Assembly: GCA_001778375.1 (NCBI GenBank)
Contig: MFGV01000074.1
Coordinates: 9,651 to 73,650, forward strand
Direction of reading: 5' to 3'
Source of the DNA: Candidatus Firestonebacteria bacterium RIFOXYD2_FULL_39_29
Lineage (GTDB): Bacteria; Oederibacteriota; D2-FULL-39-29
DNA length: 64,000 nt
A program made the position numbers and the translations under genes. Below the pieces are notes generated by a model. That model worked only from the letters and a program-made list of their open reading frames with translations. It did no database searches and was not told where the DNA came from. This document shows, piece after piece, positions 5,936 through 59,498 of the stretch. How positions within the stretch are numbered: position 1 is the first letter of the stretch; every line of letters begins with the position of its first letter.

Positions 5936-6120
5936 AACAAACTCGAAATTTTAAATTCGAAATTCGAAGAAAAAGCAAGCGTAAAAAAAAGAAAAAAAGT
6001 GCTTTAAATGTGAGTTTTTTGTTGCTCTTTTTTAAGGTTTAGAATTTTCCGCCTTTGGCGAGATCTCGCTTTCAGCGGACGAGTTTAGTACTTCGAATTT
6101 ATTTGTTTACCGGGGGGTTG

Positions 6121-6834
6121 ATGTCTAAAATTAATACAAATATCAAAGACAAGATTATAGTGGCTCTCGATTATTCTGATGAAAAGACTGCGTTAAGTAT
6201 TGCGGAGAAAGTTGCGCCTTATGTCGGAGTTTTTAAAGTTGGGTTTGAACTTTTCATTTCAGCAGGACCTTCCATCGTAAGTAAAATTCATTCTTTGGGC
6301 GGAAAAGTATTTTTGGATTTAAAATTTCATGATATTCCCAATACGGTGGCAAAAGCAGCGGCTTCCGCGGCAGATATGAATGTTTTTATACTTAATGTTC
6401 ATGCTTCCGGAGGGCTTGAGATGATGAAAAAAGCGGCGGAAGAAATTAAAAAATCAAAAAATCATCCTATACTTATTGCGGTAACAGTTCTAACCAGTAT
6501 GAATAGCGGGATTTTAAAAAACGAATTAAATATAGCGTCAACAGCCGCAGAACAGGTTGTGCGTCTTGCAAAACTGGCAAAAGAAGCGGGACTTTCGGGT
6601 GTTGTCGCCTCCGGAGAAGAAATAACATCGATAAAAAATGCTTGTGGTAAGGATTTCAAAGTGATTGTTCCGGGTGTCAGACCGGATTGGTCTGCTAAAA
6701 ATGACCAGAAACGCATAGTCACTCCGGAAGAAGCCATAGAAAGAGGCGCGGATTTCATAGTTGTAGGCCGACCCATTACCGGAGCAGAAAATGTTGTTGA
6801 AGCGGCAAAAAAAATACTCTCGGAAATATCCTGA
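6121..6834 (+). CDS. pyrF: Orotidine 5'-phosphate decarboxylase
   Basis: IIVALDYSDEKTALSIAEKVAPYVGVFKVGFELF...LDLKFHDIPNTV...VVGRPIT are canonical PyrF motifs. The start is taken at the internal ATG (MSKINTN) rather than the 6055 start in the ORF track. Confidence 0.85.
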   Translation: MSKINTNIKDKIIVALDYSDEKTALSIAEKVAPYVGVFKVGFELFISAGPSIVSKIHSLGGKVFLDLKFHDIPNTVAKAAASAADMNVFILNVHASGGLEMMKKAAEEIKKSKNHPILIAVTVLTSMNSGILKNELNIASTAAEQVVRLAKLAKEAGLSGVVASGEEITSIKNACGKDFKVIVPGVRPDWSAKNDQKRIVTPEEAIERGADFIVVGRPITGAENVVEAAKKILSEIS

Positions 6835-39641: not shown

Positions 39642-39806
39642 AATAATAGGACATTTGCCGAGACTGTCGGGGTTAACAAGATAACAAAAAAAGCTGCAAA
39701 ACTGTTCTTGATAAAAACATTTTTGGGTGCTACAATATTTTTGTTGATTGCTTTGAAGGATTTTACTTTATAAACCTTAAAAGCATTATAAACATCGTTT
39801 ACGGCT

Positions 39807-39843
39807 GCGGGCGTAATTCAGCGGTAGAATGCCACCTTCCCAA
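39807..39843 (+). repeat. 37-nt direct repeat of the tRNA-Gly 5' half (acceptor stem, D arm, anticodon stem and loop). This is the left attachment site of the integrative element.
   Basis: GCGGGCGTAATTCAGCGGTAGAATGCCACCTTCCCAA is identical to 59424-59460. The identity stops at the 3' end of the anticodon loop. Confidence 0.75.
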
Positions 39844-40263: not shown

Positions 40264-41913
40264 ATGCCAAAAGAAGATTTTAGTAGCTGGTCAAGAGAAG
40301 AATTATTAACAGAAATTAAAAAGCTAAGGAAGCGAAAAAAATATGGTATGGTGTGGGAAGATAAACCGGAGCAAGTTGCCGAGCTTTGTAAAAACAAACT
40401 CCCTGTCTTAATAGAACAACACGATAAAATAATAGAAACCAATAAAGACCTCCCTGTTAATATTTTAATTGAAGGTGACAATTATCATGCCTTGTCAGTC
40501 TTAAATTATACACATAAAAATAAAATCGATGTCATATATATAGATCCTCCTTATAATACTCGAGCAAAGGATTGGAAATATAATAACGACTACGTTGATG
40601 AAAACGATGATTATAGGCATAGCAAATGGCTCTCGATGATGAATAAAAGAATAATTTTAGCTAAGAATCTCTTAAGAAGGGACGGAGTTCTAATAGCAAC
40701 AATTGATGATCATGAATTATTGGGGTTGCTCGGATTGTTAGAAGGTGTAAATGCCAAGAATATTGGTATAGTTTCAATTTGTATTAAACCTGAAGGAAGA
40801 CGTCAAAGCAAATATATAATGGAAGCACACGAATATGCATTATTTGTAACATGGGGTACCCCGATTACCAGAGGTCTAAATGTAGACTTTGGTTTAGATT
40901 TTCCAGAAAAAGATCCGGTATCCAATTTCCGATGGGAAGGGTTGATGCGAAGAGACGCTTCGCGTGAGGACAGAGGGTCAGACTACTGGTATGCATTCCA
41001 TGTTTCTAAAGAAGGTAAAATATTTTTTGAGCCAGGTAAAGGAACGAGTGAAGTTTGGCCAATAAATGTTAAAGGGATTGAGAGGGTTTGGCTTTGGGAC
41101 AAACAAAGAGCAAAAGACAATGTGGGCGAGCTTAGTGCTGTTGTTCGAAAAGAAAGAATAACTATCTATTACAAACGTCGTGAACTTGGTCGTGTAAAAC
41201 CAACATCGTTTTGGCATGGAAGTAAGTATAATGCTAATGCATACGGCACGCGTCTTTTAAAGACGATCCTCCCAGAAACAAATTTTGATTACCCTAAAAG
41301 CTTGTACTCTGTTATGGATTGCATAGATTTGTTTCTTCCGAAGAATGGTATAGTTCTGGATTATTTTGCAGGATCTGGAACCACTGGTCATGCTGTCTTA
41401 ATGCTTAATAATGAAGACAAGGGTAGTAGAAAATTTATTGTCTGCACTAATAATGAAAATAAAATTGCAGAAGGTGTATGCTATCCAAGAATAAAAAGAG
41501 TAATAAAAGGTCTTAAAGGGCACGATGATATAACTGGAATGCCTGCAAATTTAAAGTATTATAAGACAGATTTTGTGGACGCTTCTCCGACTGATAAGAG
41601 TAAAAAGATGTTAGTTGATAAATCAACGGAAATGTTGTGTCTAAAAGAATATTGTTTTGAGGAAGTAAAAAAAGGTAAAGAATATAGAATATTCAAAGAT
41701 TCACAAAATAAGCATTTAGGTATAGTTTATGATGATGAGGGAATTGAGGATATTAAGAAGGAAATAAGAAAGATTAATAAATTAGTTGTTATATACGTTT
41801 TCTCACTTGACGAGAATGCGAGGGAAGAGGAATTTGAAGACATAAAACATCTTGTAGAATTAAAACCTATACCAGCAGTAATTTTGAATGTTTATAAGAG
41901 GATATTCAAATGA
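40264..41913 (+). CDS. mod: Type III restriction-modification system methyltransferase (Mod subunit; N6-adenine beta-class)
   Basis: Motif IV (DPPYN) precedes motif I (FAGSGTTGHA), which is the beta-class order. The gene overlaps the downstream res gene by 4 nt. Confidence 0.8.
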   Translation: MPKEDFSSWSREELLTEIKKLRKRKKYGMVWEDKPEQVAELCKNKLPVLIEQHDKIIETNKDLPVNILIEGDNYHALSVLNYTHKNKIDVIYIDPPYNTRAKDWKYNNDYVDENDDYRHSKWLSMMNKRIILAKNLLRRDGVLIATIDDHELLGLLGLLEGVNAKNIGIVSICIKPEGRRQSKYIMEAHEYALFVTWGTPITRGLNVDFGLDFPEKDPVSNFRWEGLMRRDASREDRGSDYWYAFHVSKEGKIFFEPGKGTSEVWPINVKGIERVWLWDKQRAKDNVGELSAVVRKERITIYYKRRELGRVKPTSFWHGSKYNANAYGTRLLKTILPETNFDYPKSLYSVMDCIDLFLPKNGIVLDYFAGSGTTGHAVLMLNNEDKGSRKFIVCTNNENKIAEGVCYPRIKRVIKGLKGHDDITGMPANLKYYKTDFVDASPTDKSKKMLVDKSTEMLCLKEYCFEEVKKGKEYRIFKDSQNKHLGIVYDDEGIEDIKKEIRKINKLVVIYVFSLDENAREEEFEDIKHLVELKPIPAVILNVYKRIFK

Positions 41914-44102
41914 TCGAATTAAAGGAGTATCAAAAAATAGCTATAGAAGGTCTTAAGAATAAAACAGAAAAGCTATTAAGATCTCCAGAAAATGAAGTGA
42001 TCATTTTTCAAGCTCCTACAGGCTCTGGAAAAACTGTAATGGTGTCAGAGCTGTTAAAAGAAATAGTGCGGAATAAGAAGGGTGATAAAAGTTATTCATT
42101 TGTCTGGGTGTCAGTTAGAATGCTTCATGAACAAAGCAAAGAAAAGTTAGAAAAATATTACGAAGATGATAGGCTAATAAAGTGCTCATACTTTGAAGAC
42201 TTGGAAGACAGGAAGATAAACGAAAATGAAATTTTGTTTATTAACTGGCACAGCATAAACAAGAAAGACATAAATATATTTGTAAAAGAAAATGAGCGAG
42301 ATAATAATTTGAATAGTATTATTCGGAACACAAAAGAGGAAGGAAGAACTGTAATATTAGTTATTGACGAAAGCCATCATTCCGCAAATTCAGAGAAGTC
42401 AAAAGAATTAATAGAAGTTATTGGCCCTAAAGTAACCATAGAGGTTTCTGCTACACCTCATCTAACTGACAAAGTCTCTGAGATTGAGAAAGTCCATTTA
42501 ACTGATGTTAAATCTGAAGAAATGATTAAGATGGAAATTGTTGTTAATCCTGAATTTAAAAGTATCCAAGTCGGGTCAAAAAGTGCTGACGAACTGGTAA
42601 TTGATCAGGCATTAAAGAAGAGAAAAGATTTGAAATTAATGTTCGAGAACGAAGGTTCAAATATTAATCCGCTTGTGTTAATTCAATTGCCAGACAGTAA
42701 AGGAGATTTGATTAACAAAAAAGAAGATGTGGAAAAAATTCTAGAATCAAAAGGAATTACTGAAAAGAACGGGAAATTAGCAATATGGTTGTCAGAAGAA
42801 AAAACTGATACTTTACCAAATATAGAAAAAAATGATAATGACGTAGAGGTCTTGGTATTTAAGCAAGCTATTGCGTTAGGTTGGGATTGCCCAAGAGCAT
42901 CAATTCTGGTGATATTTAGAGAATTGAAAAGTTTTGTTTTTACTATACAGACGATCGGCAGGATTATGAGAATGCCAGAGTTGCGTTATTATGTTAAGAA
43001 TGAGGAACTGAATAAAGGATTTGTTTTTACAAATCTGCCAAGCATTGAAATAACAGAGGATTACGCAAAAGACTATATATCAATATATGAAGGTAAAAGA
43101 GATAACAAGTTGTATGAGGAATTAGCCTTGTCATCAGTTTTCATGAAAAGGCAAAGAGAAAGAACACGTTTGTCAGGGGCCTTTACGAGAATATTTGTGA
43201 CGGTGGCTGATGTGAACAAATTACAAAATAAAATTAATGTGGACAAATCTAAAATTATCAATCCAATAATATCAGATGGGAAGATAAAAGATGTGGATAA
43301 ACCTGGGAAGATAGAGGACAAGGGCCAGGTGTATTTGACTTTAAGTGAGAAGGAATTGCAAGAAAAATTTGATAGATTTATCATTCAGAATTGTTCTCCT
43401 TATGCTCCAGTTGATTCAAGTGATAGAATGAAAACAGCTATATACCAATACTTTAAGCAAAAATACAAAATAGAAAAGTATGATCCAAAGGTTCAGGGTA
43501 TAGTCTTAGGGAAGGAGAATGAACAAGCATTTGTGGATGTTATAAACCTTGCAAAGGAGCGATACAAAAAAGAAGTCATAGAAAAACTATCCGAAACAAA
43601 GGAAAAGGAAGAGACGCCGGAATGGGAAGTTCCAATAGTCATTAACTATAACAAAAGGTATAAAAAAGAAGACCATGAGAAGTCTATTATTAAACCATTC
43701 TATGTGTCTGAACAAAGTGATCCCGAGAGAAAGTTTGTAGAATTGCTTGACAAATCTAGTAAGGTAAAATGGTGGTATAAGAACGGAGAGGGCGAGGTTA
43801 AATATTTTGCAGTACCGTACAAGGATGAGAATGGCATAGAAAGAAGTTTTTATGTTGATTTTGTAGTTAAATTTAAAGATGGCAGGATTGGACTATTTGA
43901 TACTAAAAGCGGAATGACAGCAGAACAGGCTGGCCCAAGAGCGGAAGGCTTACAAAAATACATTAAGAAGGAATTGAAAAAAGTAAAAAAGCTTGAGGGT
44001 GGAATAGTCATATCTGTTAAAAATAGTTGGAGAGTTAATAGTAACGATAAGTACAAATATAATAAAGATGACCTCTCGGAATGGAAAATCTTGGACATAT
44101 AG
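41910..44102 (+). CDS. res: Type III restriction enzyme Res subunit (SF2 helicase-like, DEAH-box)
   Basis: Walker A (QAPTGSGKT), the DEAH-like motif (VIDESHH), and helicase motif VI (QTIGRIMR) are present. It sits immediately after mod. Confidence 0.8.
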   Translation: MIELKEYQKIAIEGLKNKTEKLLRSPENEVIIFQAPTGSGKTVMVSELLKEIVRNKKGDKSYSFVWVSVRMLHEQSKEKLEKYYEDDRLIKCSYFEDLEDRKINENEILFINWHSINKKDINIFVKENERDNNLNSIIRNTKEEGRTVILVIDESHHSANSEKSKELIEVIGPKVTIEVSATPHLTDKVSEIEKVHLTDVKSEEMIKMEIVVNPEFKSIQVGSKSADELVIDQALKKRKDLKLMFENEGSNINPLVLIQLPDSKGDLINKKEDVEKILESKGITEKNGKLAIWLSEEKTDTLPNIEKNDNDVEVLVFKQAIALGWDCPRASILVIFRELKSFVFTIQTIGRIMRMPELRYYVKNEELNKGFVFTNLPSIEITEDYAKDYISIYEGKRDNKLYEELALSSVFMKRQRERTRLSGAFTRIFVTVADVNKLQNKINVDKSKIINPIISDGKIKDVDKPGKIEDKGQVYLTLSEKELQEKFDRFIIQNCSPYAPVDSSDRMKTAIYQYFKQKYKIEKYDPKVQGIVLGKENEQAFVDVINLAKERYKKEVIEKLSETKEKEETPEWEVPIVINYNKRYKKEDHEKSIIKPFYVSEQSDPERKFVELLDKSSKVKWWYKNGEGEVKYFAVPYKDENGIERSFYVDFVVKFKDGRIGLFDTKSGMTAEQAGPRAEGLQKYIKKELKKVKKLEGGIVISVKNSWRVNSNDKYKYNKDDLSEWKILDI

Positions 44103-49720: not shown

Positions 49721-50263
49721 ATGGATAAGAAAATGCGTATAACGGGGGTAAAGATGACAAAAAAGGATAGAATCGAATGGAGCGTGGCAAAAGAACTGGC
49801 GGATAGGGTCTGTAAAGAGCTTGAACCTTGGTGTGAAAGGATAGTTGTGGCAGGGTCTATAAGGCGGATGAAACCAATAGTCGGAGACATTGATTTGATT
49901 GCAAAAACAAAGCAAGAATATACCAGAGAGTTTGTAATGCAAAAGTTCTGCGTTTTAGGAGAACAGATAATAATGAGCGGGATAGTAAAAAGCTCGATAG
50001 TCAAGGAAGGCAAGCAAATTGATTTGAACCTGCTCTTAAGTAATAACAATTGCTCTGGTGCATTTATTCTTCATCACACAGGAGGGTGGATCTCAAATAT
50101 GAAGCTAAGGCAAGTAGCAAAGAACAAGGGTCTAATGTTAAGCCAGTACGGTGTGTTTAAAGTAAGCCCTGATGGGACTCAGGAATTCATAGCAGGAGAG
50201 ACGGAAGAATCAGTTTACAAAGTGTTGGGGCTTCCGTACGTAATTCCTGAACGGAGAGAATAA
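49721..50263 (+). CDS. Mini family-X DNA polymerase / Pol-beta-like nucleotidyltransferase (palm and thumb only, 180 aa)
   Basis: [16 protein letters not shown] matches GSFRRGAESSGDMDVLL of Pol beta (two catalytic Asp). QIDLNLL matches RIDIRLI (third Asp). [36 protein letters not shown] matches [50 protein letters not shown] matches IFDYIQWKYREPKDRSE. Confidence 0.7.
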   Translation: [180 protein letters not shown]

Positions 50264-50430: not shown

Positions 50431-51045
50431 ATGGAGGTGGTTAAGATGTATACAAGGAAGAAAGAAAGTGAATTCTTAACGGAGGATGAGGCAAGGTTGA
50501 TTTGTTCCCTGCCTGATCAAAGGACGGCAGAGGGTAAAAGAGATATGGCAATTCTAACCCTGATGTTAACGACAGGATGTAGAAAAGCCGAAGTCTGTGA
50601 TCTAACGGTAGGGAGTATAAAAGATTACAGGAACCAAAAAATATTGGAGGTTATCGGTAAAGGAAATAAGCTCAGGAGGATTGCTCTAAAGCCAGATACT
50701 TGTGAATTGATTATGAAGTATCACAGGGCAATCGGAAACGGTCATGATCCGAGCCAGCCGTTGTTTCTAACTCTTGGTAAGCACGGGCCATTTAAGAAAC
50801 AAGGGTTAACTCATTGTGCAGTGGATTGTATAGTCTGGAAGTATGCCGAGAAAAGTTGCCTAACAAAAAGAATAACGCCGCATACTTTAAGGCATACGTT
50901 TGCCACGACCTTACTTTCAAAAGGAGTGGATTTAAGGACTGTCCAAGATCTCATGGGTCATTCCGCAATAAGCACGACTGAGTTATATCTTCATACAAAT
51001 GACGACAAAAAGTTTGAAGCTGTCTGGAAACTAAACTTTAATTAA
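50431..51045 (+). CDS. Minimal tyrosine recombinase (catalytic domain only, 204 aa)
   Basis: The catalytic R (TGCRKAEV), H-x-x-R (PHTLRHTFAT) and Tyr (TTELYLHT) are all present. There is no N-terminal core-binding domain. Confidence 0.6.
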   Translation: MEVVKMYTRKKESEFLTEDEARLICSLPDQRTAEGKRDMAILTLMLTTGCRKAEVCDLTVGSIKDYRNQKILEVIGKGNKLRRIALKPDTCELIMKYHRAIGNGHDPSQPLFLTLGKHGPFKKQGLTHCAVDCIVWKYAEKSCLTKRITPHTLRHTFATTLLSKGVDLRTVQDLMGHSAISTTELYLHTNDDKKFEAVWKLNFN

Positions 51046-51057
51046 AGGAGGATAAAA

Positions 51058-51537
51058 ATGTACGGTGTTCGTAAACCAGAAAAGAAAAACGCTGAAAGGA
51101 TGAGGAGACTTAAAATTACGGCTGTTAAGGTTTGGCTGTATCATTACGAGAACGGAAAGCTGATTGAAAGTTATATCCGTTCATTGGATAAGTACGATAG
51201 GCAAGGCAGAGTAATATCTTCAGAGCAGTATAATAATAAAGGCAAGGTTACCTCCAAAAGTATTTACGGGTACTTGAATGACGGGAGGATTACCGAGGTA
51301 AAATATTTACATGGCAAGAAGCTTTGGCAGATGAGCTACCGTTATACAAAGGATAAACAGATTTCTGTGATTAGATTCTTTACTCAGAAAGGCAGGATTA
51401 AGAAGCTCCGAAGATATGTTACAAGGTTTGATGAAAAGGGCAATGTTTTGGAATCAATAACCACCGATCAAAAAGGTAGAAAATATATTCTTGAAAAGTT
51501 CGTCCATGAGTATTCCAAGGAGACGGAGGCGATATGA
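51058..51537 (+). CDS. MORN-variant/YwqK-like repeat protein
   Basis: The units YENGKLIESY / YDRQGRVISSEQY / NNKGKVTSKSIYGY / LNDGRITEVKY repeat. Confidence 0.4.
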   Translation: MYGVRKPEKKNAERMRRLKITAVKVWLYHYENGKLIESYIRSLDKYDRQGRVISSEQYNNKGKVTSKSIYGYLNDGRITEVKYLHGKKLWQMSYRYTKDKQISVIRFFTQKGRIKKLRRYVTRFDEKGNVLESITTDQKGRKYILEKFVHEYSKETEAI

Positions 51538-51779
51538 AGGGTTTGTTGAAGAGGATGAAAGATGGGGATGTCGTGGTGGTTGTTACTGGCAAAGTTACAG
51601 AAAACTTAAGAGGTATTCTAGAGGCATTGGTAAAGCGTAATAATAGTTTAGTTGTAAAAAAGGTTTCAAGAAAGAAGCGCCACATCACGATAAAAGAAGT
51701 ATATGATGATTTGATTGTAAGAAGGGCTGTAATTATCCTTACTGATAAAGCAGAATACGAAGCCATAGTAATTGGATAG
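51534..51779 (+). CDS. Hypothetical small protein
   Basis: ORF only. It overlaps the upstream stop codon. Confidence 0.3.
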   Translation: MKGLLKRMKDGDVVVVVTGKVTENLRGILEALVKRNNSLVVKKVSRKKRHITIKEVYDDLIVRRAVIILTDKAEYEAIVIG

Positions 51780-51820
51780 TTGTCTGTAGACAAAAGGCAA
51801 GTAATGTGTTATACTATAAT
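51780..51820 (+). promoter_or_regulatory. Promoter with an overlapping operator. A perfect 6-2-6 palindrome (TTGTCT-GT-AGACAA) overlaps the -35 TAGACA. A 17-nt spacer leads to a -10 TATACT/TATAAT.
   Basis: The palindrome spans 51780-51793. The -35 is at 51787-51792. The -10 is at 51810-51815, with an overlapping TATAAT at 51815-51820. An AAGGAGG ribosome-binding site follows, then the ATG at 51839. Confidence 0.55.
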
Positions 51821-51838
51821 GGACAAGGAGGGACAACA

Positions 51839-52435
51839 ATGGACAATGCAGATGAATTACCATGTATAGGGGAGATGTTAACTATTGAAGATGTATCGAA
51901 GTATTTAAAGGTAAACAAAAAGACAATTTACAGGATGATTAACTTAAGACAGATACCTGCTTTCAAAGTAAGTAACCAATGGCGATTTAAAAAATGTGAA
52001 CTTGACAAATGGATTGATGAAAGCAATGTTGTAACAGAGATTCCGATTCTAGGAACAGTTGCGGCAGGGAAACCCATGTTTGCAGAGGAAAATTATGAAG
52101 GGATGCTTACAGTAGATAAGTCAATAGTCGGGAAGTCAAAAGATATTTTTGCGCTGAAAGTTAAAGGTTCGAGTATGATCGATGGGAACATAGAAGACGG
52201 GGACTATATTGTTATCCAAAAACAGCCTCAAGTTTTTCAAGGCGAAAGAGCTGTTGTAATTGTAAACGGCGAGGCCACGGTAAAAAAGTACTATGAAGAA
52301 CAAAATATGATCAGATTGCAACCACAAAATGAAACAATGCAACCAATTATTGTTGACCCGAGTACGAATGAAGTTTCTATTGCTGGTAAAGTTAAAGCTG
52401 TCATTAAAAGAAATAAAAAAGTTGTGAGGGATTAA
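51839..52435 (+). CDS. LexA-like self-cleaving repressor: excisionase/MerR-type HTH fused to an S24 peptidase domain
   Basis: The N-terminal HTH_17-like segment is MLTIEDVSKYLKVNKKTIYRMINLRQIPAFKVSNQWRF. The cleavage-site region is GTVAAGKP (LexA VAAGEP). Ser and Lys are in LexA-like contexts (KVKGSSMIDGNIEDGDYIVIQK; ERAVVIVNGEATVKKY). The start is taken at the ribosome-binding-site-supported internal ATG. Its stop (TAA) lies 1 nt before the capV ATG. Confidence 0.7.
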   Translation: MDNADELPCIGEMLTIEDVSKYLKVNKKTIYRMINLRQIPAFKVSNQWRFKKCELDKWIDESNVVTEIPILGTVAAGKPMFAEENYEGMLTVDKSIVGKSKDIFALKVKGSSMIDGNIEDGDYIVIQKQPQVFQGERAVVIVNGEATVKKYYEEQNMIRLQPQNETMQPIIVDPSTNEVSIAGKVKAVIKRNKKVVRD

Positions 52436-52436
52436 A

Positions 52437-53384
52437 ATGAATGATTGTTTTCAAATACTTTCATTAGATGGCGGTGGGATAAAAGGTCTATTCTCGGCAG
52501 TGTTACTTGCTAAGCTTGAAGAAGACCTCAAAATAAAGGTGATTGATCATTTTGATTTAATAGTAGGAACTTCTACCGGAGGTATTATTGCTTTGGGCCT
52601 CGGGTTGGGAATGACGCCAAAGGAGATTGTCGACTTTTATCTTGAGAAAGGCCCAAGGATATTTGCCGGTATCCCTGTTGCTTCATGGTTTAAACATATT
52701 TTATTTAATAAATATGATGGGAAAATACTAGAAGATATTTTAAAAGATGATAAATGTTTTGGTTCGAGATTGCTTGGAGAAAGCAAAAAACGATTGGTAA
52801 TACCATCTTTTGATACTGATTCGGGAGAAGTGTATATTTTTAAGACGGCACACCATGAACGGTTTAAACGAGATTTCAAATATCCTGCTTGGAAAGTAGC
52901 GCGTGCAACAACAGCAGCGCCTTCATTTTTTCCGACATGTAAGTGCATTGATAACATTAGTTTGGTGGATGGAGGATTGTGGGCGAATAATCCGAGTATG
53001 ATTGGCTTGGTTGAGGCAATCAAGGTATTAGAAATACCTATTGATACGATAAAAATATTGAATATCGGGACAACAGAAGAATTATCAAAAAAATCCTTTG
53101 TATTGAAATATTTCGGGGGTTGGTTGCCAAGGGCTTTGCCTGCTATTAAAACGATATTGCAAGCTCAATCTTCCGCGGTTTGTTCTCAATGCAAGTTATT
53201 AATAAAAGATCACTATGTTAGAATTAGTCCAAAAGTACCAGAAGGATTATTCAAATTGGATAAGCTAAACATGCAAGACTTGTATGCTTTTGCTTCAAAG
53301 CATAGCAGAGATAACTCTCCTATTTTTGAGAATGTTTTTTCTGGACACAAGTCAGGAGAGTTTGTCCCAATTCACAAAATATAA
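52437..53384 (+). CDS. capV: Patatin-like phospholipase (CBASS CapV-type effector)
   Basis: Oxyanion hole (ILSLDGGGIKG), GxSxG (VGTSTGG), catalytic Asp (LVDGGLWANNP). Confidence 0.75.
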   Translation: MNDCFQILSLDGGGIKGLFSAVLLAKLEEDLKIKVIDHFDLIVGTSTGGIIALGLGLGMTPKEIVDFYLEKGPRIFAGIPVASWFKHILFNKYDGKILEDILKDDKCFGSRLLGESKKRLVIPSFDTDSGEVYIFKTAHHERFKRDFKYPAWKVARATTAAPSFFPTCKCIDNISLVDGGLWANNPSMIGLVEAIKVLEIPIDTIKILNIGTTEELSKKSFVLKYFGGWLPRALPAIKTILQAQSSAVCSQCKLLIKDHYVRISPKVPEGLFKLDKLNMQDLYAFASKHSRDNSPIFENVFSGHKSGEFVPIHKI

Positions 53385-53401
53385 TGTAGGAGGAAAAGAA
53401 A

Positions 53402-54517
53402 ATGTTAACAGCTGATAGAGTTTTAAAACTTGCGCATGACTTAGATTCAATTGTGGAAAATTTAGATATATCTGAAAGCAGATATTTAGAAGCTGTAAAA
53501 AGATATGAAGCTGTTGGATCATGGTTGAGTAGTGAAAAGTCTCCATTGCTTAAATTAAAGTTCATACCAAGGATATATTCTCAAGGCTCTTTTCGTCTTG
53601 GTACTGTAGTAAGGCCGATCAATAATAAAGATGAGTGCGATATTGACTTGGTATGTTTACTAACAGCAGAAGAGCAGAAAAGCATTACATCGAAAGAACT
53701 AAAAGAAATTGTCGGGGAAAGCCTGAAACAGAATGGGATATACGCAAAGTTGCTCGATAAAGAAGGAAGAAGGTGTTGGACGCTCAATTACGAGAATGAG
53801 TTCCATTTGGATATTTTACCTGCCATATTAGATGTAGAACTAAATAAAGTTGGTGGTTTGTATAAAACAGCGATAAAAATTACCGATAAAGCTGAGAGTG
53901 TGTATAAGTGGGAGCCTAGTAATCCAGATGGATATGCGACATGGTTTTCAGAAAGGCAAAAATTGATATTTGCCAGCTTAAAAAAATCTATGGCTGCATC
54001 TTTAAAAGAGAGTATAGATGAAGTACCAGATTATAAAGTCAGGACACCTCTTCAGAAGAGTGTTCAAGTTCTTAAGCGTCATCGAGATGTATATTTTGAT
54101 GGAAAAGAGAATAAGCCTGCATCTATAATCATTACAACTATATGTGCTGTGTTATACAATGGGCAAGCGGATGTGTATACTGCTTTGCATGACATCTTGA
54201 GTGATTTTGATATTGAACAATATAAGAAGGAAGAAGGCTATTATTTGGCTAATCCGTCCAATATTGCTGAGAATTTTATGGAGAGATGGAATGAAGATGA
54301 CTCCCTTCCATTGGCTTTCTTTGAGTGGTTGGAAGATGCTAAGAATGATTTTTGTGATACAGGATTGATAAGAAAAAGTAGTGCAGATGTAACTACCATT
54401 CTCGAGGCAAAACTTGGAACCACTATAAAGACTACAAGAAATAATCTTGTTAATAGCGTTCCTCTAGTATCAATAAACACTGGGAATGTTAGCAAGAGAC
54501 AGCCATGGGGTTTGTAG
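53402..54517 (+). CDS. cGAS/DncV-like nucleotidyltransferase (CD-NTase)
   Basis: GSFRLGTVVRPINNKDECDIDLV matches GS-x(n)-DxD. The third acidic residue sits in HLDILPA, the hDhhPA strand typical of CD-NTases. A strong ribosome-binding site (AGGAGG) is present. The gene lies between a patatin effector and an E2-like gene. Confidence 0.65.
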   Translation: MLTADRVLKLAHDLDSIVENLDISESRYLEAVKRYEAVGSWLSSEKSPLLKLKFIPRIYSQGSFRLGTVVRPINNKDECDIDLVCLLTAEEQKSITSKELKEIVGESLKQNGIYAKLLDKEGRRCWTLNYENEFHLDILPAILDVELNKVGGLYKTAIKITDKAESVYKWEPSNPDGYATWFSERQKLIFASLKKSMAASLKESIDEVPDYKVRTPLQKSVQVLKRHRDVYFDGKENKPASIIITTICAVLYNGQADVYTALHDILSDFDIEQYKKEEGYYLANPSNIAENFMERWNEDDSLPLAFFEWLEDAKNDFCDTGLIRKSSADVTTILEAKLGTTIKTTRNNLVNSVPLVSINTGNVSKRQPWGL

Positions 54518-55218
54518 ATGTTGACAGTCAATATAAAGAATTAAGGAGTCAATACCCATATTTGTTCTTGAATAAAGATGAGAATGTTTTTCGTATTAGC
54601 GGAACAATTGTTATCAATGTTGCCGAACTAAATGATGCTTTTGAAATTGAGATAGTTATTGATAAAGAATATCCTCTGAAACCACCCTTTGTTAGAGACC
54701 TTGATTCTAAAATACCGAAAGACTACCATCGCATTAAAGGTGGATACTTTTGCTTGGAAACCCCATACACGTTAAATCAAATATTTAAACAGCAACCTAC
54801 ATTGCTTTATTTCGTTAATGAGTTAGTTATTCCGTATTTGTTTAATTATCATATGTTTCAAAAAACAGGGATAATGCCTTTTGGGCAAAGGAATCATGGA
54901 ATTACAGGCATAATGGATGATTTTAAGAATCGGTTAAATGCAAACGACGATATTACTGTAATCAAGCTTATTCAGATGTTAGTGGAAGATAATTATAGGG
55001 GCCATTATGACTGTCCGTGCGGGAGCAAAAAAAGGATTAGAAATTGTCATGCTGATAAATTGTTAAAATTAAAAGTTGAAGGATATAACTTTATGGAAGA
55101 TTATCTCATGATGGTGTTTTCTGTCAAAGATAAAGTAAATATTGTGCCATTGATTTCCAAGAAGGCAAGGCAATTTATTAAGGAGAAGGGAGATTCCCCA
55201 AAGCCAGATAAGCTATAA
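54505..55218 (+). CDS. E2 ubiquitin-conjugating-like protein (CBASS type II-short Cap2-like) with a C-terminal Cys/His cluster
   Basis: UBC-fold signature: FEIEIVIDKEYPLKPPFVRDL...DYHRIKGGYFCLETP (compare YP..PP...HPNI...GRICLDIL). CPCGSKKRIRNCH is a Zn-ribbon-like cluster. It overlaps the end of the CD-NTase gene. Confidence 0.5.
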   Translation: MGFVDVDSQYKELRSQYPYLFLNKDENVFRISGTIVINVAELNDAFEIEIVIDKEYPLKPPFVRDLDSKIPKDYHRIKGGYFCLETPYTLNQIFKQQPTLLYFVNELVIPYLFNYHMFQKTGIMPFGQRNHGITGIMDDFKNRLNANDDITVIKLIQMLVEDNYRGHYDCPCGSKKRIRNCHADKLLKLKVEGYNFMEDYLMMVFSVKDKVNIVPLISKKARQFIKEKGDSPKPDKL

Positions 55219-55397
55219 AACTTCCCTCGTTTTATTACACAAAATATAGTTCAAGAAGAAAATCCCTCCATGGAAACATTAACAAAATCAATAAGTCGGA
55301 AAATCGAGTATGATGGTTATTTCCCTCGTTTTTTATATCAAGTGATTATTATTTGCTGAAAAACCTGATTTGGGGCGAATAAAAATGAATAGGGGTA

Positions 55398-55426
55398 TTG
55401 ACAAAAACAGGAAACAGAGGTATACT
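55398..55426 (+). promoter_or_regulatory. Sigma70-like promoter (TTGACA, 17-nt spacer, TATACT) upstream of the primase/helicase gene
   Basis: TTGACA lies at 55398-55403 and TATACT at 55421-55426. The direct repeat TTCCCTCGTTTT lies upstream at about 55213 and about 55320. Confidence 0.5.
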
Positions 55427-55569
55427 TACAATAAATAGAGCGTGGCTGAATCGCGTCGCGCTGGTTGAATTTGAAGTTACCGAGAAAAACCTTCTATAAA
55501 ACTTCTCATGGTCGAAAGACCGCGAGGAGTTTTTTATTTTGTAGTCAGAAAAATAGAAGGAGTGAATAA

Positions 55570-57279
55570 ATGGAAAAATCTCGGGAAGGCAATCAAAATA
55601 ATACGCACATTGTAAAAGCTGTAAGAATAGAACCTCCTGAAGTTGACGAATATTATCTTATAAGCGAAAGAGAAAAGGTGCAAGTACTGTCTTTGGAAGA
55701 TGATAATTCGGCTGAGGTTCTTTTTCAAAATGAGAAATATCCAAGGGTGGTTAATTACTTTGATGATTGGGAACTGCTCCCCTATGAAAAGATCAAAAAC
55801 CAAATCATCGAAGTAAGAGAACAGAATAAAAGACCTTTTTTGATCAAAAAAGAAGTTGCTTCCTTGGTGATAGAAAGTTTGTGTAAGCACGGATTCTTTG
55901 CTTGGAGCAACGAAGAAAGTTATTACTTTAGAAACAAAGACCACAAGCTTTTCAGTGTTAATTCGATAGCCTTTCAAGCTTTTGTCGAGTTTAGCTTTGG
56001 GTTGAATTCGACCGAAATAGAATATAAGTATTTAATTGAGAGTATCAAAGCCTACGCCTACCGTGAGAAAACAGTAACTGTTTACAACTTCTGCTTCTAT
56101 AATAGATATTTAAGTTGCCTGTATATTTCTAGCTTTGACGGGATGATGTATAGGTTAAACGGATATATAGTTGAGTCGGTTCCAAATGGGACAGACGGTA
56201 TTCTATTCATAGATGATCCAAGTTGGGAGTCATTTGAGTACTTGGGTCAGAATATAAGATCGGGATATGTCTCAGAGCTATTAGTGGATACAATAAATTT
56301 TACTTTATCAACAGAGGTGCTACTCCTTCCAAGTGAACAACGGGGTTTTTGGTTGCTAAATATATTTTCCCTGTTTTTTGAAAGTCTATTGCCTACAAAA
56401 CCACTAACGCTGTTTCTGGGTCAGAAGGGGTCTGGAAAAACCTCAACTTTGTCTTGGATATTGTCGCTTTTTTTTGGAAGCAAGGTGCGAGTTCTTTCTA
56501 TGGGAAAGGATAAAGAAGATGCTTTCCTTGCAAGTATCTGTAACGAATACTTAGTGGTCTATGACAATGTTGATGGCAAGATTCTTTGGCTAAATGACCA
56601 CTTAGCAGCTGTTGCCACGGGATCGGGTATAATTCGCAGAAAATTATACACGACGAATGAAAAGAGTAAAATGTTTCCGCGGGTGTTTATATTTTTGACT
56701 TCAAGGACTCCGAACTTTAAGAGAGATGATTTAGCAGACAGAATGCTCATTTTCAATGTTGAAACATTTAAAGAGTTCAAATCTGAAGAACAATTAAGAA
56801 AGGAAAGAGCAGATAAAAGAAACGAATTGATGACAGAATTGCTGAATGACCTTAACACAATAGTTCAACACTTGAAAACAGATGGGAACCCAGAATTTAA
56901 GACAAACCACAGGATGGCTGATTGGGCTAAATTAGTATGTAGGATAGGCAGAGTTGTAGGGGTGGAAAATAAAATTATTTTGGCATTGGAGAAGCTTCAG
57001 CATGATCAAAGTGAATTCTTGCTTGGGGATGAACCTATAGCACAGGCACTTGAATTGTGGACAGGAATACCGGGGTATGAAGCACGGAGCCTAACTGCGA
57101 AAGAGCTTCTGGATGAACTAGGGTCTGCATTCCCTGAAATAAGGAGCACATATAGGAGTCCGAAAAGTCTTGCTCAGAAACTCACACACATAGAAAAGAA
57201 TTTGAAGATCTACTATGAGATAAAGACGGAAAAGGAGGAGGGCAAAGCTAAAACATATAGTTTTAGTAAACGGAAATAG
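55570..57279 (+). CDS. Phage/plasmid primase-helicase (P4/D5-family SF3 NTPase C-terminal domain)
   Basis: Walker A (GQKGSGKTS), Walker B (LVVYDNVD), then ATGSGIIRRKLYTTNEKSKMFPRVFIFLTSRTP. This matches the LTGGDTITARKKY...FKPTAKLIFATNHLP block of P4-type primases. Confidence 0.6.
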   Translation: MEKSREGNQNNTHIVKAVRIEPPEVDEYYLISEREKVQVLSLEDDNSAEVLFQNEKYPRVVNYFDDWELLPYEKIKNQIIEVREQNKRPFLIKKEVASLVIESLCKHGFFAWSNEESYYFRNKDHKLFSVNSIAFQAFVEFSFGLNSTEIEYKYLIESIKAYAYREKTVTVYNFCFYNRYLSCLYISSFDGMMYRLNGYIVESVPNGTDGILFIDDPSWESFEYLGQNIRSGYVSELLVDTINFTLSTEVLLLPSEQRGFWLLNIFSLFFESLLPTKPLTLFLGQKGSGKTSTLSWILSLFFGSKVRVLSMGKDKEDAFLASICNEYLVVYDNVDGKILWLNDHLAAVATGSGIIRRKLYTTNEKSKMFPRVFIFLTSRTPNFKRDDLADRMLIFNVETFKEFKSEEQLRKERADKRNELMTELLNDLNTIVQHLKTDGNPEFKTNHRMADWAKLVCRIGRVVGVENKIILALEKLQHDQSEFLLGDEPIAQALELWTGIPGYEARSLTAKELLDELGSAFPEIRSTYRSPKSLAQKLTHIEKNLKIYYEIKTEKEEGKAKTYSFSKRK

Positions 57280-57727: not shown

Positions 57728-58180
57728 ATGGGTAAGGATATTATCGAAGAATTATATAATGTTGACAAAGTTCTAAATATTCCGTTTGTCGGTTTAGGGT
57801 TGATCGGAGAAAAGCTTGTGGTGTCATTTGAAAAAGACGATATGACCACAGAGAGGATGTCCTGCTTTACGGAAGGGCATTACACAGGGAATCCCAGTAT
57901 AAGGCTTCAGGCAGGGGAACGGTTCATTGTTGCCACAAGAGCTCAAAGGCAGGCTCTTACGGTCAAGCCAGAGGCTCTAAGCGTTGAACGGCGTTACTTG
58001 AGCGTGAAAGAATGTGCCGTATATACTGGGGTTAGCGTTAAAACGCTGTATCGGTGGAGCCGTGAGTCCAAAGTCCCTACCAGTAAAATCGGACATATCC
58101 TGCGGTTTGACAGGGCAGAAATAGAGAAGTGGGTAGGCAGGTATAAAAGGAGCGCTACTAATGCTGACCTTTTGGATTGA
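57728..58180 (+). CDS. Excisionase-family HTH protein (Xis-like)
   Basis: C-terminal HTH_17: LSVKECAVYTGVSVKTLYRWSRESKVPTSKIGHILRFDRAEIEKW. It lies immediately upstream of the integrase. Confidence 0.55.
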   Translation: MGKDIIEELYNVDKVLNIPFVGLGLIGEKLVVSFEKDDMTTERMSCFTEGHYTGNPSIRLQAGERFIVATRAQRQALTVKPEALSVERRYLSVKECAVYTGVSVKTLYRWSRESKVPTSKIGHILRFDRAEIEKWVGRYKRSATNADLLD

Positions 58181-58246: not shown

Positions 58247-59329
58247 ATGTTAAATGAAGCTGTTCCATATCCTAACCTGACAAGGCGTAAAAGCGGAGTA
58301 TGGCTTTCCGATTTTATTGATCCGTCAGGTAAGAGGATACGCCGTTCTTTGAAAACGAAAGACTTGCGATTGGCACAAGTAAGAGTCCGAAAGATGATGT
58401 CGGAAGCCTACGAGAAAGGATACTTCGACCTTAAGAGACCAGTAAAGATGTATTTTTCTGAATTGGCTGAGAAAGTTCTTCAATATGCTAAGGACAAAAC
58501 CAGAAGATATAAAAAGGTTTATCTGCCGACTATCAAAACGTTAACAAAACATATTGGCAGGAAAACGCTACGTGAGATTACTAAGGGCGTAGTTCAGGAA
58601 GTTCAAGCAGAGATAAAAGAAAGCATATCGGAAGTCAATTCAAATAATGCGATGGTTGTCTTAAAGCGGATGTTCAATCTAGCGATCGACTGGGAATATA
58701 TAGAAACTAATCCAGTCAGGGGCATCGAGCTTTACAAAGTGCCCAAGAGAAAAGTACGGTTTTTAACAAATGAAGAAATTGAAACTGTACTTGGTTGCTG
58801 TGTAGGGCAGATGAAGGATATCGTTTCAGTGGCTTTGCATACGGGGATGAGGAAAGGGGAAATACTCGGTTTAAAATGGGACAACGTTGACCTGAGTAAC
58901 AGGTTGATAGTCTTAGATAAAACCAAGAATAATAACATAAGAGAAATTCCCATGAGCTCTGACACCTATGGCATGCTACTGAAGAAGTATCAGGAGAGAA
59001 AGCCCCACCGAGAAGACTATGTTTTTCCAAACGCTGATAACGAGCAGTATCGAGATGTGGCGGCGTTTAGGAAGGCGGTAAGCTTGACGGGAATTAAATG
59101 CAGGTTCCATGATTTACGACACACGTTTGCTTCTCAGTTGGTTATGGCGGGCGTTGATCTTGTCACGGTCAAGGAGCTTCTGGGACACTCAGAGCTTGAT
59201 ACAACACTCATCTATGCCCATCTGGCACCGAAGCATAAGAAAGACGCCATAGCTAAGTTGGAGTTGCACTACGATAAAGTGGCGGAAGAAAGTTTTTCGT
59301 ATAGCCCAGATTTGCTCAAGAGGGCGTAA
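58247..59329 (+). CDS. int: Tyrosine site-specific integrase (P4-like, with an arm-binding N-domain)
   Basis: N-terminal LTRRKSGVWLSDFIDPSGKRIRRSL (DUF4102/arm-binding-like). Catalytic R (HTGMRKGEI), HDLRHTFAS, and Tyr (LIYAHL). It is adjacent to a tRNA gene. Confidence 0.8.
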   Translation: MLNEAVPYPNLTRRKSGVWLSDFIDPSGKRIRRSLKTKDLRLAQVRVRKMMSEAYEKGYFDLKRPVKMYFSELAEKVLQYAKDKTRRYKKVYLPTIKTLTKHIGRKTLREITKGVVQEVQAEIKESISEVNSNNAMVVLKRMFNLAIDWEYIETNPVRGIELYKVPKRKVRFLTNEEIETVLGCCVGQMKDIVSVALHTGMRKGEILGLKWDNVDLSNRLIVLDKTKNNNIREIPMSSDTYGMLLKKYQERKPHREDYVFPNADNEQYRDVAAFRKAVSLTGIKCRFHDLRHTFASQLVMAGVDLVTVKELLGHSELDTTLIYAHLAPKHKKDAIAKLELHYDKVAEESFSYSPDLLKRA

Positions 59330-59423
59330 CCGTATGGCACATTTTAGTCACATTTTGAAAAAAAGTAAATTTATCAGATTCAACTTTACAAAACGCCTTG
59401 TAGATGCTAATATAAATTCCAGT

Positions 59424-59498
59424 GCGGGCGTAATTCAGCGGTAGAATGCCACCTTCCCAAGGTGGACGTCGAGGGTTCAAGTCCCTTCGCCCGCTCCA
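59424..59498 (+). tRNA. tRNA-Gly (anticodon CCC), with an encoded 3' CCA
   Basis: GCGGGCG acceptor stem pairs with CGCCCGC. D arm is AGCGGTAGA. Anticodon stem CCACC/GGTGG carries the loop TTCCCAA. T arm is GAGGGTTCAAGTCCCTT. Discriminator is T, followed by CCA. Confidence 0.85.

What the first reader, a model, noticed from the sequence alone, without database searches (positions are those of the whole stretch)
51780..55218. CBASS-like operon translationally coupled to a LexA-type self-cleaving repressor with a swapped (excisionase-type) HTH
The operon order is repressor, patatin effector (CapV), CD-NTase, then an E2-only protein. The first gene has a LexA cleavage loop (VAAGKP) and the Ser/Lys dyad context. 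Its DNA-binding domain is an excisionase/MerR-type HTH rather than LexA's winged helix. Its stop is 1 nt from the capV start, so all four genes should share the promoter at 51787-51820. That promoter's -35 is overlapped by a perfect TTGTCT-GT-AGACAA palindrome. Known CBASS regulators are the two-protein CapH (HTH) / CapP (metallopeptidase) pair. A single fused S24-peptidase repressor would instead tie CBASS expression directly to RecA*/DNA-damage signals. That is a regulatory architecture I cannot place among described CBASS regulators.
Basis: partly seen in the sequence, partly recalled or inferred. Interest (0 to 1): 0.8.

Follow-up and report, generated by a model that had tools for sequence, protein, structure and literature searches.

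The report
LexA-like self-cleaving repressor heading defence operons
A four-gene anti-phage CBASS operon on a 19.6-kb genomic island is headed by a LexA-like self-cleaving repressor with an excisionase-type DNA-binding domain; I found no published description of its regulator family, which elsewhere heads restriction-modification operons and probably switches them on after DNA damage.

Summary
Window 51839-52435 encodes an HTH_17 domain fused to a LexA-type S24 peptidase domain. It has an Ala76-Gly77 cleavage site and a Ser112/Lys149 dyad. One nucleotide downstream begin capV, a CD-NTase and an E2-only gene, which together form a type II-short CBASS.

- **The regulator is not CBASS-specific.** At least 120 protein clusters share the architecture at 46-64% identity. 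In every other informative locus I could read, the gene leads a restriction-modification operon or is fused to an MNT nucleotidyltransferase.
- **The palindrome is not conserved.** Twelve independent loci instead share an alignable promoter. It has GACAA in the -35 and two to four forward GACAA-like repeats at exactly 10-nt spacing between the -10 and the start codon. This fits the N-domain's BldC/Xis-like fold, a class that binds direct repeats head-to-tail.
- **Known CBASS regulators also include CapW and CapK/CapS.** None is S24-based.

The most likely mechanism is an autoregulated repressor inactivated by RecA*-stimulated self-cleavage. This is inferred, not shown. My literature searches found no description of such a family. 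I rate it a new variant of a known kind, with interest about 0.66.

The parts
51780..51785 (+). TTGTCT, the inverted copy of AGACAA.
   Evidence: Read and unique in the window. None of the 11 other loci has an inverted copy at this position.
51787..51793 (+). TAGACAA: the -35 hexamer TAGACA plus the first GACAA site
   Evidence: Promoter scan scores 10 of 12. GACA is invariant at this column in the 12-locus alignment A5.
51807..51815 (+). Extended -10 element, TGtTATACT
   Evidence: Promoter scan shows TG before the second hexamer. The region aligns with TATAAT/TATACT in all 12 loci.
51820..51846 (+). Three phased direct repeats: TGGACAA (51820-26), GGGACAA (51830-36) and TGGACAA (51840-46). 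They lie at 10-nt spacing, cover the expected transcription start, and overlap the RBS (AAGGAGG, 51825-31) and the start codon. This is the proposed main operator.
   Evidence: GACA-N6-GACA occurs only here in 64 kb. The same 10-nt phased forward repeats occur in 12 of 12 loci. GACAA was seen 24 times against 1.3 expected in 9 x 100 nt.
51839..52435 (+). Regulator gene: HTH_17 (aa 13-61, nt 51875-52021) fused to a LexA-type S24 domain (aa 69-185, nt 52043-52393). Cleavage site A76-G77 is at 52064-52069, Ser112 at 52172-52174 and Lys149 at 52283-52285.
   Evidence: Domains and residues. AlphaFold models and fold searches.
52437..53384 (+). capV, the patatin-like phospholipase effector. It starts 1 nt after the regulator's stop codon.
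53402..54517 (+). CD-NTase (SMODS / DncV-like nucleotidyltransferase)
54505..55218 (+). E2-only Cap2-like protein. It overlaps the end of the CD-NTase gene by 13 nt.
   Evidence: PADLOC E2 at 3.7e-89. Coordinates.
39806..39843 (+). Left copy of a 38-nt direct repeat, taken as the att site and left boundary of the island that carries the operon
   Evidence: 100% identical to 59423-59460.
59423..59460 (+). Right copy of the 38-nt repeat. It is the 5' part of tRNA-Gly(CCC) (59424-59498), next to the integrase gene at 58247-59329.

Best explanation
The first gene encodes an autoregulated transcriptional repressor of its own four-gene operon (regulator, capV, CD-NTase, E2).

**Proposed mechanism.**
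- The N-terminal BldC/Xis-like winged helix binds forward-oriented GACAA sites. One lies in the -35. Three phased at one helical turn cover the transcription start, the RBS and the start codon. Binding is probably cooperative and head-to-tail, stabilised by dimerisation of the LexA-type C-terminal domain.
- This keeps the toxic CBASS operon at a low level.
- DNA damage, or phage-generated ssDNA, creates RecA* filaments. These stimulate self-cleavage at Ala76-Gly77 by the Ser112/Lys149 dyad.
- Cleavage separates the DNA-binding domain from the dimerisation domain, and the operon is derepressed.

The regulator, its promoter and its operator form a portable cassette. In other genomes this cassette heads restriction-modification operons. 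Here it has been joined to a CBASS.

**Shown.** Domain architecture, conserved catalytic and cleavage residues, operon layout, conserved repeat architecture, and diversity of cargo.

**Inferred.** DNA binding to the repeats, repression, RecA* dependence, and induction.
For: **Self-cleavage module.**
- The C-terminal domain is closer to LexA (E 2e-30) than to UmuD (1e-13) or lambda CI (2e-5). It aligns over LexA residues 75-198.
- It passes the NCBIfam lexA cut-off: 119.9 bits against 110.95.
- A76, G77, S112 and K149 are invariant in 37 relatives, and also in 47 sequences that include homologues at 33-37% identity.
- Fold search of the AlphaFold model puts LexA first (E 9e-12).

**DNA-binding domain.**
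- The N-domain model (pLDDT 82) best matches BldC (TM 0.76-0.83, rmsd 1.4-1.5 A). RacA, the RdfS excisionase, Tn916 Xis and Pukovnik Xis follow.
- BldC binds DNA direct repeats as cooperative multimers (PMC5859096).

**Operator.**
- Twelve independent loci share an alignable promoter. GACA is invariant in the -35, and forward repeats at exactly 10-nt spacing lie downstream of the -10.
- A position downstream of the -10 fits repression rather than activation.
- In the 64-kb window the phased repeat occurs only at this promoter.

**Co-transcription.**
- In 10 of 12 loci the next gene follows on the same strand within 25 nt: -4 to 25 nt, and 1 nt here. The other two gaps are 51 and 150 nt.
- No promoter-like site on the + strand lies between 51847 and the capV start.

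**Link to DNA damage.** Homologues at 36-40% identity with an HTH-S24 layout sit next to Y-family polymerase genes, the classic SOS mutagenesis context.
Against: - There are no experimental data of any kind.
- The AlphaFold confidence for the C-terminal domain is only 60-78, so the active-site geometry was not checked.
- A symmetric LexA-type dimer binding direct rather than inverted repeats is structurally awkward and has no precedent that I know of.
- The -35 'site' may simply be the promoter hexamer TTGACA.
- Some LexA-like proteins are processed independently of RecA, for example IrvR (PMC7101444 abstract).
- I could not verify that the host has recA or a canonical lexA. No other LexA-like gene lies in the 64-kb window.
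- Same-strand genes lie directly upstream (51058-51779) with no predicted terminator, so read-through could add to expression.
- For CapW, induction was not needed for defence (PMC9122588 abstract). The physiological role of such induction is therefore open.
Confidence: 0.6

Rival explanations
1. The regulator works like a restriction-modification controller (C) protein. It is a copy-number and establishment timer for a mobile defence cassette. On entry into a naive cell there is no repressor, so the operon fires and is then shut down. The S24 domain serves mainly as a dimerisation domain. Any cleavage is RecA-independent or irrelevant.
For: - Almost all relatives lead type II R-M operons, usually with the methyltransferase first.
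- The cassette sits in unrelated genomic neighbourhoods and on an integrative island, so it is mobile.
- An autoregulatory layout, with the operator at the regulator's own promoter, is shared with C proteins.
Against: - Strict invariance of the Ala-Gly site and the Ser/Lys dyad in 37-47 sequences argues that cleavage is under selection.
- Dimerisation alone would not need these residues.
- This view does not exclude damage induction. The two roles can coexist.
Confidence: 0.17
2. The gene is the master repressor of the 19.6-kb integrative island, in the manner of CI or SetR. It controls excision or transfer, and CBASS is merely cargo that happens to lie downstream.
For: - The operon lies inside an island bounded by 38-nt repeats at tRNA-Gly.
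- The island has two integrase genes and an excisionase-like HTH_17 gene.
- S24 repressors commonly control mobile elements.
Against: - The phased GACAA repeats occur nowhere else in the window. In particular they are absent upstream of the 55570 gene and of the xis-like and int genes.
- In other genomes the same regulator and operator sit with only an R-M operon between housekeeping genes, with no integrase.
- The regulator is co-directional with the cargo and 1 nt from it, not divergent from a lytic or transfer operon.
Confidence: 0.08
3. The gene is the host's own SOS master repressor, as the NCBI record names it ('repressor LexA', OGF45114.1). In this lineage LexA would simply have a non-canonical DNA-binding domain, as in Bacteroidetes.
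For: - It passes the NCBIfam lexA cut-off.
- Non-canonical LexA proteins with swapped N-domains are known (PMC8565304).
- No other LexA-like gene is present in the 64 kb.
- Distant HTH-S24 relatives sit beside Y-family polymerase genes or holA.
Against: - The gene lies inside a horizontally acquired island.
- Its closest relatives come from several phyla and are always tied to a defence cargo.
- The operator-like repeats are found only at its own promoter in the window.
- The lexA cut-off is reached through the C-terminal domain alone.
Confidence: 0.05
4. One reading: a dimer binds the TTGTCT-GT-AGACAA palindrome over the -35, as LexA binds an SOS box.
For: - The palindrome is perfect and overlaps the -35.
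- LexA-type dimers normally bind inverted repeats.
- In six other loci a second site lies 7-8 nt from the -35 site, but in direct orientation. A pair of sites at the -35 therefore seems to be part of the design.
Against: - It is not conserved in any of the 11 other loci. Almost all GACA-type sites there are forward-oriented.
- 30 perfect 6-N2-6 palindromes occur in the window by the same criterion.
- The best structural matches of the N-domain, BldC above all, bind direct repeats.
Confidence: 0.1

Closest known systems
LexA (SOS repressor, S24 peptidase family)
   Same: The C-terminal domain aligns over LexA residues 75-198. It has the Ala-Gly cleavage site and the Ser/Lys dyad. It passes the NCBIfam lexA cut-off, and LexA is the top fold match.
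   Different: The N-terminal domain is HTH_17 (BldC/Xis-like), not the LexA winged helix. The gene is on a mobile island. Operator-like sites are direct repeats at its own promoter only, not palindromic SOS boxes spread over a regulon.
CapH + CapP (CBASS-associated HTH repressor plus ssDNA-activated metallopeptidase)
   Same: The logic is the same: a proteolytically inactivated repressor encoded at the head of an immune operon. It is also found with several kinds of defence system.
   Different: CapH+CapP is two proteins. Its protease is a zinc metallopeptidase that senses ssDNA itself. Here one polypeptide would cleave itself with a Ser/Lys dyad, presumably using host RecA* as the sensor.
CapW/BrxR (wHTH-WYL-WCX) and CapK+CapS (kinase plus STAS repressor)
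   Same: These are DNA-damage-responsive repressors encoded next to diverse immune operons.
   Different: They have no proteolysis. Their domains are unrelated, and none of those domains is present here.
Controller (C) proteins of type II restriction-modification systems
   Same: They are small autoregulatory DNA-binding proteins encoded as the first gene of R-M operons. Most relatives of this regulator occupy exactly that position.
   Different: C proteins are XRE-type HTH proteins of about 80-100 aa that bind C-boxes with dyad symmetry (from my own knowledge of the family). They have no peptidase domain.
MAD1, first gene of the MADS methylation-associated defence system
   Same: The N-domain scores 73.3 bits on the NCBIfam MAD1 model (cut-off 80) and 3e-8 on PADLOC mad1. 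Both are the leading gene of a defence operon.
   Different: MAD1 is an HTH-only protein (its models are 49-60 positions long) of untested function. Deleting it had limited effect on defence. It has no S24 domain.
BldC and excisionases (RdfS, Tn916 Xis, Pukovnik Xis)
   Same: These are the best structural matches of the N-domain. BldC binds direct repeats as cooperative multimers, which matches the 10-nt phased repeats found here.
   Different: They are single-domain proteins with no dimerisation or peptidase domain, and they have different biological roles.
Phage CI and ICE SetR-type S24 repressors
   Same: They are mobile-element-encoded, self-cleaving repressors with a non-LexA DNA-binding domain.
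   Different: Their N-domains are XRE/CI-type. They control lysis-lysogeny or transfer genes and are usually divergently transcribed. The C-terminal domain here is much closer to LexA than to CI.

Membership tests
LexA | S24 C-terminal domain with an Ala-Gly cleavage site and a Ser/Lys catalytic dyad | tested here: met
   A76-G77, S112 and K149 align with LexA A84-G85, S119 and K156. They are invariant in the family.
LexA | N-terminal LexA_DNA_bind winged helix (PF01726) | tested here: not met
   Pfam finds HTH_17 and not PF01726. The fold matches BldC/Xis.
LexA | Curated whole-protein score (NCBIfam TIGR00498) | tested here: met
   119.9 bits against a cut-off of 110.95, but only model positions 75-202 are matched.
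LexA | Controls a dispersed SOS regulon through palindromic boxes | tested here: inconclusive
   Only 64 kb could be searched. The repeat array occurs solely at the gene's own promoter. The whole genome was not available.
LexA | RecA*-stimulated autocleavage | not testable with these tools
   This needs biochemistry.
CBASS type II (short) | CD-NTase, an effector and an E2-only Cap2, without E1 or JAB | tested here: met
   PADLOC cyclase 2e-115, phospholipase effector 7e-98 and E2 4e-89. The best E1-E2 model hit covers only an E2-length stretch, and no JAB was found.
CapH+CapP | Separate HTH repressor plus a zinc metallopeptidase | tested here: not met
   No metallopeptidase is present in or beside the operon. 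The regulator is a single S24 fusion.
CapW/BrxR | wHTH-WYL-WCX architecture | tested here: not met
   No WYL match in Pfam or PADLOC.
CapK+CapS | Anti-sigma-like kinase plus a STAS-domain repressor | tested here: not met
   Neither domain was found in the flanking genes.
R-M controller (C) proteins | Small XRE-type HTH protein | tested here: not met
   The domain is HTH_17, not XRE, and the protein is 198 aa with a peptidase domain.
R-M controller (C) proteins | First gene of an R-M operon with the operator at its own promoter | tested here: met
   This is true of the relatives. In the window the cargo is CBASS instead.
MAD1 (MADS) | NCBIfam NF047737 cut-off of 80 bits | tested here: not met
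   73.3 bits, just below the cut-off. The match covers the whole 49-position model.
HTH_17 / excisionase-BldC class | Pfam HTH_17 and TIGR01764 'excise' domain scores | tested here: met
   56.4 bits (cut-off 27) and 46.2 bits (cut-off 28.8).
HTH_17 / excisionase-BldC class | Binds phased direct repeats as head-to-tail multimers | tested here: inconclusive
   Conserved 10-nt phased forward repeats are present. Binding itself is untested.

The most novel reading that the evidence does not exclude
HTH_17-LexA(CTD) fusions are a fourth, so far undescribed family of portable regulators of immune operons. They would be the first to use host RecA* and self-cleavage as the signal, and the first LexA-type repressors to read phased direct repeats through an excisionase/BldC-like domain. 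They would put restriction-modification operons, and here a CBASS, under direct SOS-type control. For R-M systems, where the methyltransferase gene usually comes first, this could act as a feedback loop that answers self-restriction damage with more methylase.
Probability: 0.4. Interest if true: 0.8.

Novelty: new variant of a known kind. Interest (0 to 1): 0.66.

Why it matters
How toxic abortive-infection systems are kept silent and then switched on is an active question. A 2026 paper counts three families of DNA-damage-responsive regulators encoded next to immune operons: CapW/BrxR, CapH+CapP and CapK+CapS (PMC13373217). All three detect single-stranded DNA themselves.

A self-cleaving LexA-type regulator would add a fourth solution. 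It would plug defence operons straight into the host RecA* signal. It would also be the first such regulator found mainly with restriction-modification systems, whose known controllers are simple C proteins.

The family offers a compact, transferable promoter-operator-repressor cassette. It also raises a structural question: how does a LexA-type dimer read direct repeats? Finally, database records name these proteins 'repressor LexA', which hides the association.

Tried and rejected
- **Viral contigs.** The scan found no full-length relative.
- **Phage and plasmid collections.** tblastn gave only distant (<35% identity) CI-like or LexA hits, so there is no annotated close relative.
- **Genome and metagenome scans.** Only a few full-length HTH_17-S24 loci came out. 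I reused the remaining loci as a control set.
- **N-domain against PDB by sequence.** Nothing significant was found. The best hit was Tn916 Xis at E about 1.
- **Regulator models in PADLOC.** There is no regulator model for this protein other than mad1.
- **Unidentified cargo genes.** Several stayed without a family: the 112-aa and 671-aa genes of L001, the 306-aa and 163-aa genes of L009, and the 289-aa gene of L187.
- **L172/L173.** The downstream gene is cut after about 55 aa and is uninformative.
- **Repeat scan of 51500-55600.** It found nothing that marks cassette borders.
- **Literature.** Ten searches found no paper on S24 or LexA-like regulators heading CBASS or R-M operons. The library lacks most subscription journals, so absence is not proof.

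Full report
**1. What is in the sequence**

The 198-aa product of 51839-52435 starts at an ATG 7 nt after AAGGAGG. It matches Pfam HTH_17 (aa 13-61, 3.5e-15) and Peptidase_S24 (aa 69-185, 4.2e-31), and it has no LexA_DNA_bind domain.

Three genes follow on the same strand:
- capV at 52437-53384 (PADLOC effector 7e-98; NCBIfam CBASS_lipase 255 bits, above its cut-off);
- a CD-NTase at 53402-54517 (PADLOC cyclase 2e-115);
- an E2-only protein at 54505-55218 (PADLOC E2 4e-89).

This is a type II-short CBASS. The regulator's stop codon and the capV ATG are 1 nt apart, with a Shine-Dalgarno sequence inside the regulator gene. The promoter is TAGACA-17-TATACT with an upstream TG, at 51787-51815. The palindrome TTGTCTGTAGACAA lies at 51780-51793.

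**2. The C-terminal domain is LexA-like and looks active**

A 37-sequence family profile hits E. coli LexA at 2e-30 over LexA residues 75-198. UmuD scores 1e-13 and lambda CI 2e-5. A76-G77, S112 and K149 correspond to LexA A84-G85, S119 and K156. They are invariant in 37 close relatives, and also in a 47-sequence set that includes homologues at 33-37% identity.

The protein passes the NCBIfam lexA cut-off (119.9 against 110.95 bits) through this domain alone. This explains why its NCBI record, OGF45114.1 from Candidatus Firestonebacteria bacterium RIFOXYD2_FULL_39_29, is named 'repressor LexA'. The AlphaFold model (pLDDT 70) finds LexA structures first (E 9e-12).

**3. The N-terminal domain is a BldC/excisionase-type winged helix**

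A separate model of residues 1-68 (pLDDT 82, core above 90) best matches BldC (TM 0.76-0.83, rmsd 1.4-1.5 A). RacA, the RdfS excisionase, Tn916 Xis and Pukovnik Xis follow. BldC binds DNA direct repeats as cooperative multimers (PMC5859096).

By sequence, the domain is closest to MAD1, the HTH-only first gene of the MADS defence operon. It scores 73.3 bits on NCBIfam NF047737 (cut-off 80) and 3e-8 on PADLOC mad1. The function of MAD1 is untested, and deleting it had limited effect on defence.

**4. The regulator is a family, and CBASS is its unusual cargo**

A profile search returned 120 listed clusters. All carry PF12728+PF00717 and are 46-64% identical to the window protein. Named sources include Firestonebacteria, Flavobacterium and Ignavibacteriales.

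I could read these gene neighbourhoods. In every case the cargo is downstream on the same strand.

| Relative (identity to window) | Locus | Downstream cargo |
|---|---|---|
| P0002 (64%) | L001 | two unknown genes, D12 and N6_N4 methyltransferases, SIR2_2 |
| P0003 (63%) | L174/L175 | D12 methyltransferase (contig end) |
| P0201 (58%) | L186 | RadC-methyltransferase, methyltransferase, RE_AlwI (REase_II 4e-127) |
| P0005-7 (56%) | L002-L004 | N6_N4 methyltransferase, RE_EcoO109I |
| P0009 (56%) | L005-L008 | 835-aa methyltransferase (2e-229), REase_II (4e-108) |
| P0204 (53%) | L187 | unknown gene, methyltransferase (3.5e-132) |
| P0016 (49%) and unnamed relatives | L009/L010, L011, L091 | D12 + N6_N4 methyltransferases plus two unknown genes |
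| P0184 (49%) | L183-L185 | HNH nuclease plus two methyltransferases |
| P0040, P0219 and an unnamed relative | L012 | regulator fused to an MNT nucleotidyltransferase (PADLOC PDC-S09) |

Several of these cassettes lie between ordinary housekeeping genes with no integrase. Gaps to the next gene are -4 to 25 nt in 10 of 12 loci.

As a control, I searched about 150 loci centred on canonical LexA or distant S24 genes, using eleven methyltransferase queries and the three CBASS proteins. A methyltransferase next to the S24 gene turned up only in three LexA-methyltransferase fusions. No CBASS gene turned up outside a second copy of this same island. I therefore saw the CBASS association only here. 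My sample of neighbourhoods is small, about 11 of at least 120 clusters.

**5. The operator is probably phased direct repeats, not the palindrome**

The regions upstream of the regulator in 12 independent loci can be aligned. GACA is invariant in the -35. A conserved -10 block follows. After it come two to four forward-oriented [A/G/T]GAC[A/T]N sites at exactly 10-nt spacing, reaching towards the start codon.

In nine loci GACAA occurs 24 times in 9 x 100 nt against 1.3 expected. The maximum in 2000 shuffles was 8. Only two of those nine upstream regions hold a reverse-oriented site, one each; the window's is the left arm of its palindrome.

In the window the sites are:
- TAGACAA at 51787-93;
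- TGGACAA at 51820-26;
- GGGACAA at 51830-36;
- TGGACAA at 51840-46.

GACA-N6-GACA occurs nowhere else in the 64 kb. No other locus has an inverted copy at the palindrome's position. By the same criterion, 30 perfect 6-N2-6 palindromes occur in the window. Sites that cover the transcription start and RBS argue for repression. Their direct orientation and one-turn phase fit the BldC/Xis fold.

**6. Genomic setting**

A 38-nt direct repeat, 39806-39843 and 59423-59460, bounds a 19.6-kb island. The right copy is the 5' part of tRNA-Gly(CCC). The island carries:
- an integrase (58247-59329);
- an excisionase-like HTH_17 gene (57728-58180);
- a short second integrase (50431-51045);
- a type III-like methyltransferase/helicase pair (40264-44102);
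- the CBASS operon.

The GACAA array is absent from the other intergenic regions of the island that I read. This argues against the regulator being the island's master repressor.

**7. Mechanism and rivals**

The best-supported reading (confidence about 0.6) is an autoregulated repressor of its own operon. It binds the repeats cooperatively. RecA*-stimulated self-cleavage at Ala76-Gly77 then inactivates it, so DNA damage or phage-derived ssDNA raises CBASS expression. Elsewhere the same switch would raise R-M expression.

Homologues at 36-40% identity with an HTH-S24 layout lie next to Y-family polymerase genes, which supports a link to DNA damage.

The binding, the repression and the RecA* dependence are all inferences. 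The rivals are:
- a C-protein-like establishment timer with the S24 domain used mainly for dimerisation (0.17);
- an island master repressor (0.08);
- the host's own non-canonical LexA (0.05).

**8. Comparison with what is known, and novelty**

A June 2026 paper counts three families of DNA-damage-responsive regulators next to immune operons: CapW/BrxR, CapH+CapP and CapK+CapS. It names C proteins for R-M systems and mentions no LexA or S24 regulator (PMC13373217). The CapH/CapP and CapW papers do not mention one either. Six further full-text searches turned up no description. Most subscription journals are outside that library.

Self-cleaving S24 repressors and damage-induced defence operons are both familiar ideas. 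I therefore rate this a new variant of a known kind rather than something categorically new.

The new elements are:
- the domain combination;
- the apparent direct-repeat operator;
- the portability across R-M operons and a CBASS.

Interest is about 0.66.

Noticed in passing
L039:6890-8794, L102:152-1999, L121 (match 6001-6516, cut at the contig end): These are single open reading frames in which a canonical LexA is fused in frame to a DNA methyltransferase. The LexA part has LexA_DNA_bind and S24 domains with AAG, GNSM and LKK/LKR intact. The methyltransferase part is N6_N4_Mtase or N6_Mtase/Eco57I-like. This looks like a second, independent link between LexA-type modules and DNA methylation.
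   Followed up: partly
L012:7001-8026; proteins P0040 and P0219: Here the HTH_17-S24 regulator is fused at its C-terminus to an MNT-type nucleotidyltransferase (NTP_transf_2; PADLOC candidate system PDC-S09). A 121-aa gene follows. This may be a damage-cleavable antitoxin.
   Followed up: partly
L093:5920-6537 with 7102-8427; L099:1168-1827 with 2383-3795: Homologues at 36-40% identity that align over nearly the full length lie about 0.5 kb upstream of Y-family (impB/umuC-like) polymerase genes. This is an SOS-mutagenesis-type context. Their N-terminal domains were not checked against Pfam.
   Followed up: partly
L028, L043, L072, L103 (Treponema / Spirochaetia): Homologues at 30-39% identity that align over nearly the full length sit immediately upstream of holA (DNA polymerase III delta) in several spirochaete genomes. 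They may be a lineage-specific chromosomal regulator.
   Followed up: no
window 39806-39843 and 59423-59460: A 38-nt perfect direct repeat, whose right copy is the 5' part of tRNA-Gly(CCC), delimits a 19.6-kb integrative island. The island combines a type III-like R-M pair (40264-44102), the CBASS operon, two integrase genes and an excisionase-like gene.
   Followed up: partly
L171 (ERZ28563820 scaffold_2174) against window 52291-52333 and 50785-50883: A second assembly of the same island is 99.9-100% identical, but it lacks about 43 nt inside the regulator gene and about 100 nt in the short integrase gene. The regulator is thereby truncated to 150 aa. This could be a real variant with a crippled repressor or an assembly artefact.
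   Followed up: partly
window 57728-58180: This is a second HTH_17 protein (150 aa) whose C-terminal part also matches MAD1 and 'excise' models. It lies just upstream of the island's integrase and is probably the recombination directionality factor.
   Followed up: no
window 54505-55218 (aa about 168-183): The E2-only protein carries a C-terminal CPCGSKKRIRNCH motif resembling a SEC-C-type metal-binding motif.
   Followed up: no
window 51058-51779: Two small same-strand genes of unknown function (159 aa and 81 aa) end right at the palindrome, with no predicted terminator. The 81-aa product has a weak Cas2-like PADLOC hit (E 0.003). Read-through into the CBASS operon is possible.
   Followed up: no
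window 55222-55233 and 55321-55332: A 12-nt exact direct repeat, TTCCCTCGTTTT, lies 99 nt apart just downstream of the E2 stop codon. Its meaning is unknown.
   Followed up: no
window 49721-50263: A 180-aa DNA polymerase beta-like nucleotidyltransferase (thumb and palm domains) lies inside the island, upstream of the short integrase.
   Followed up: no
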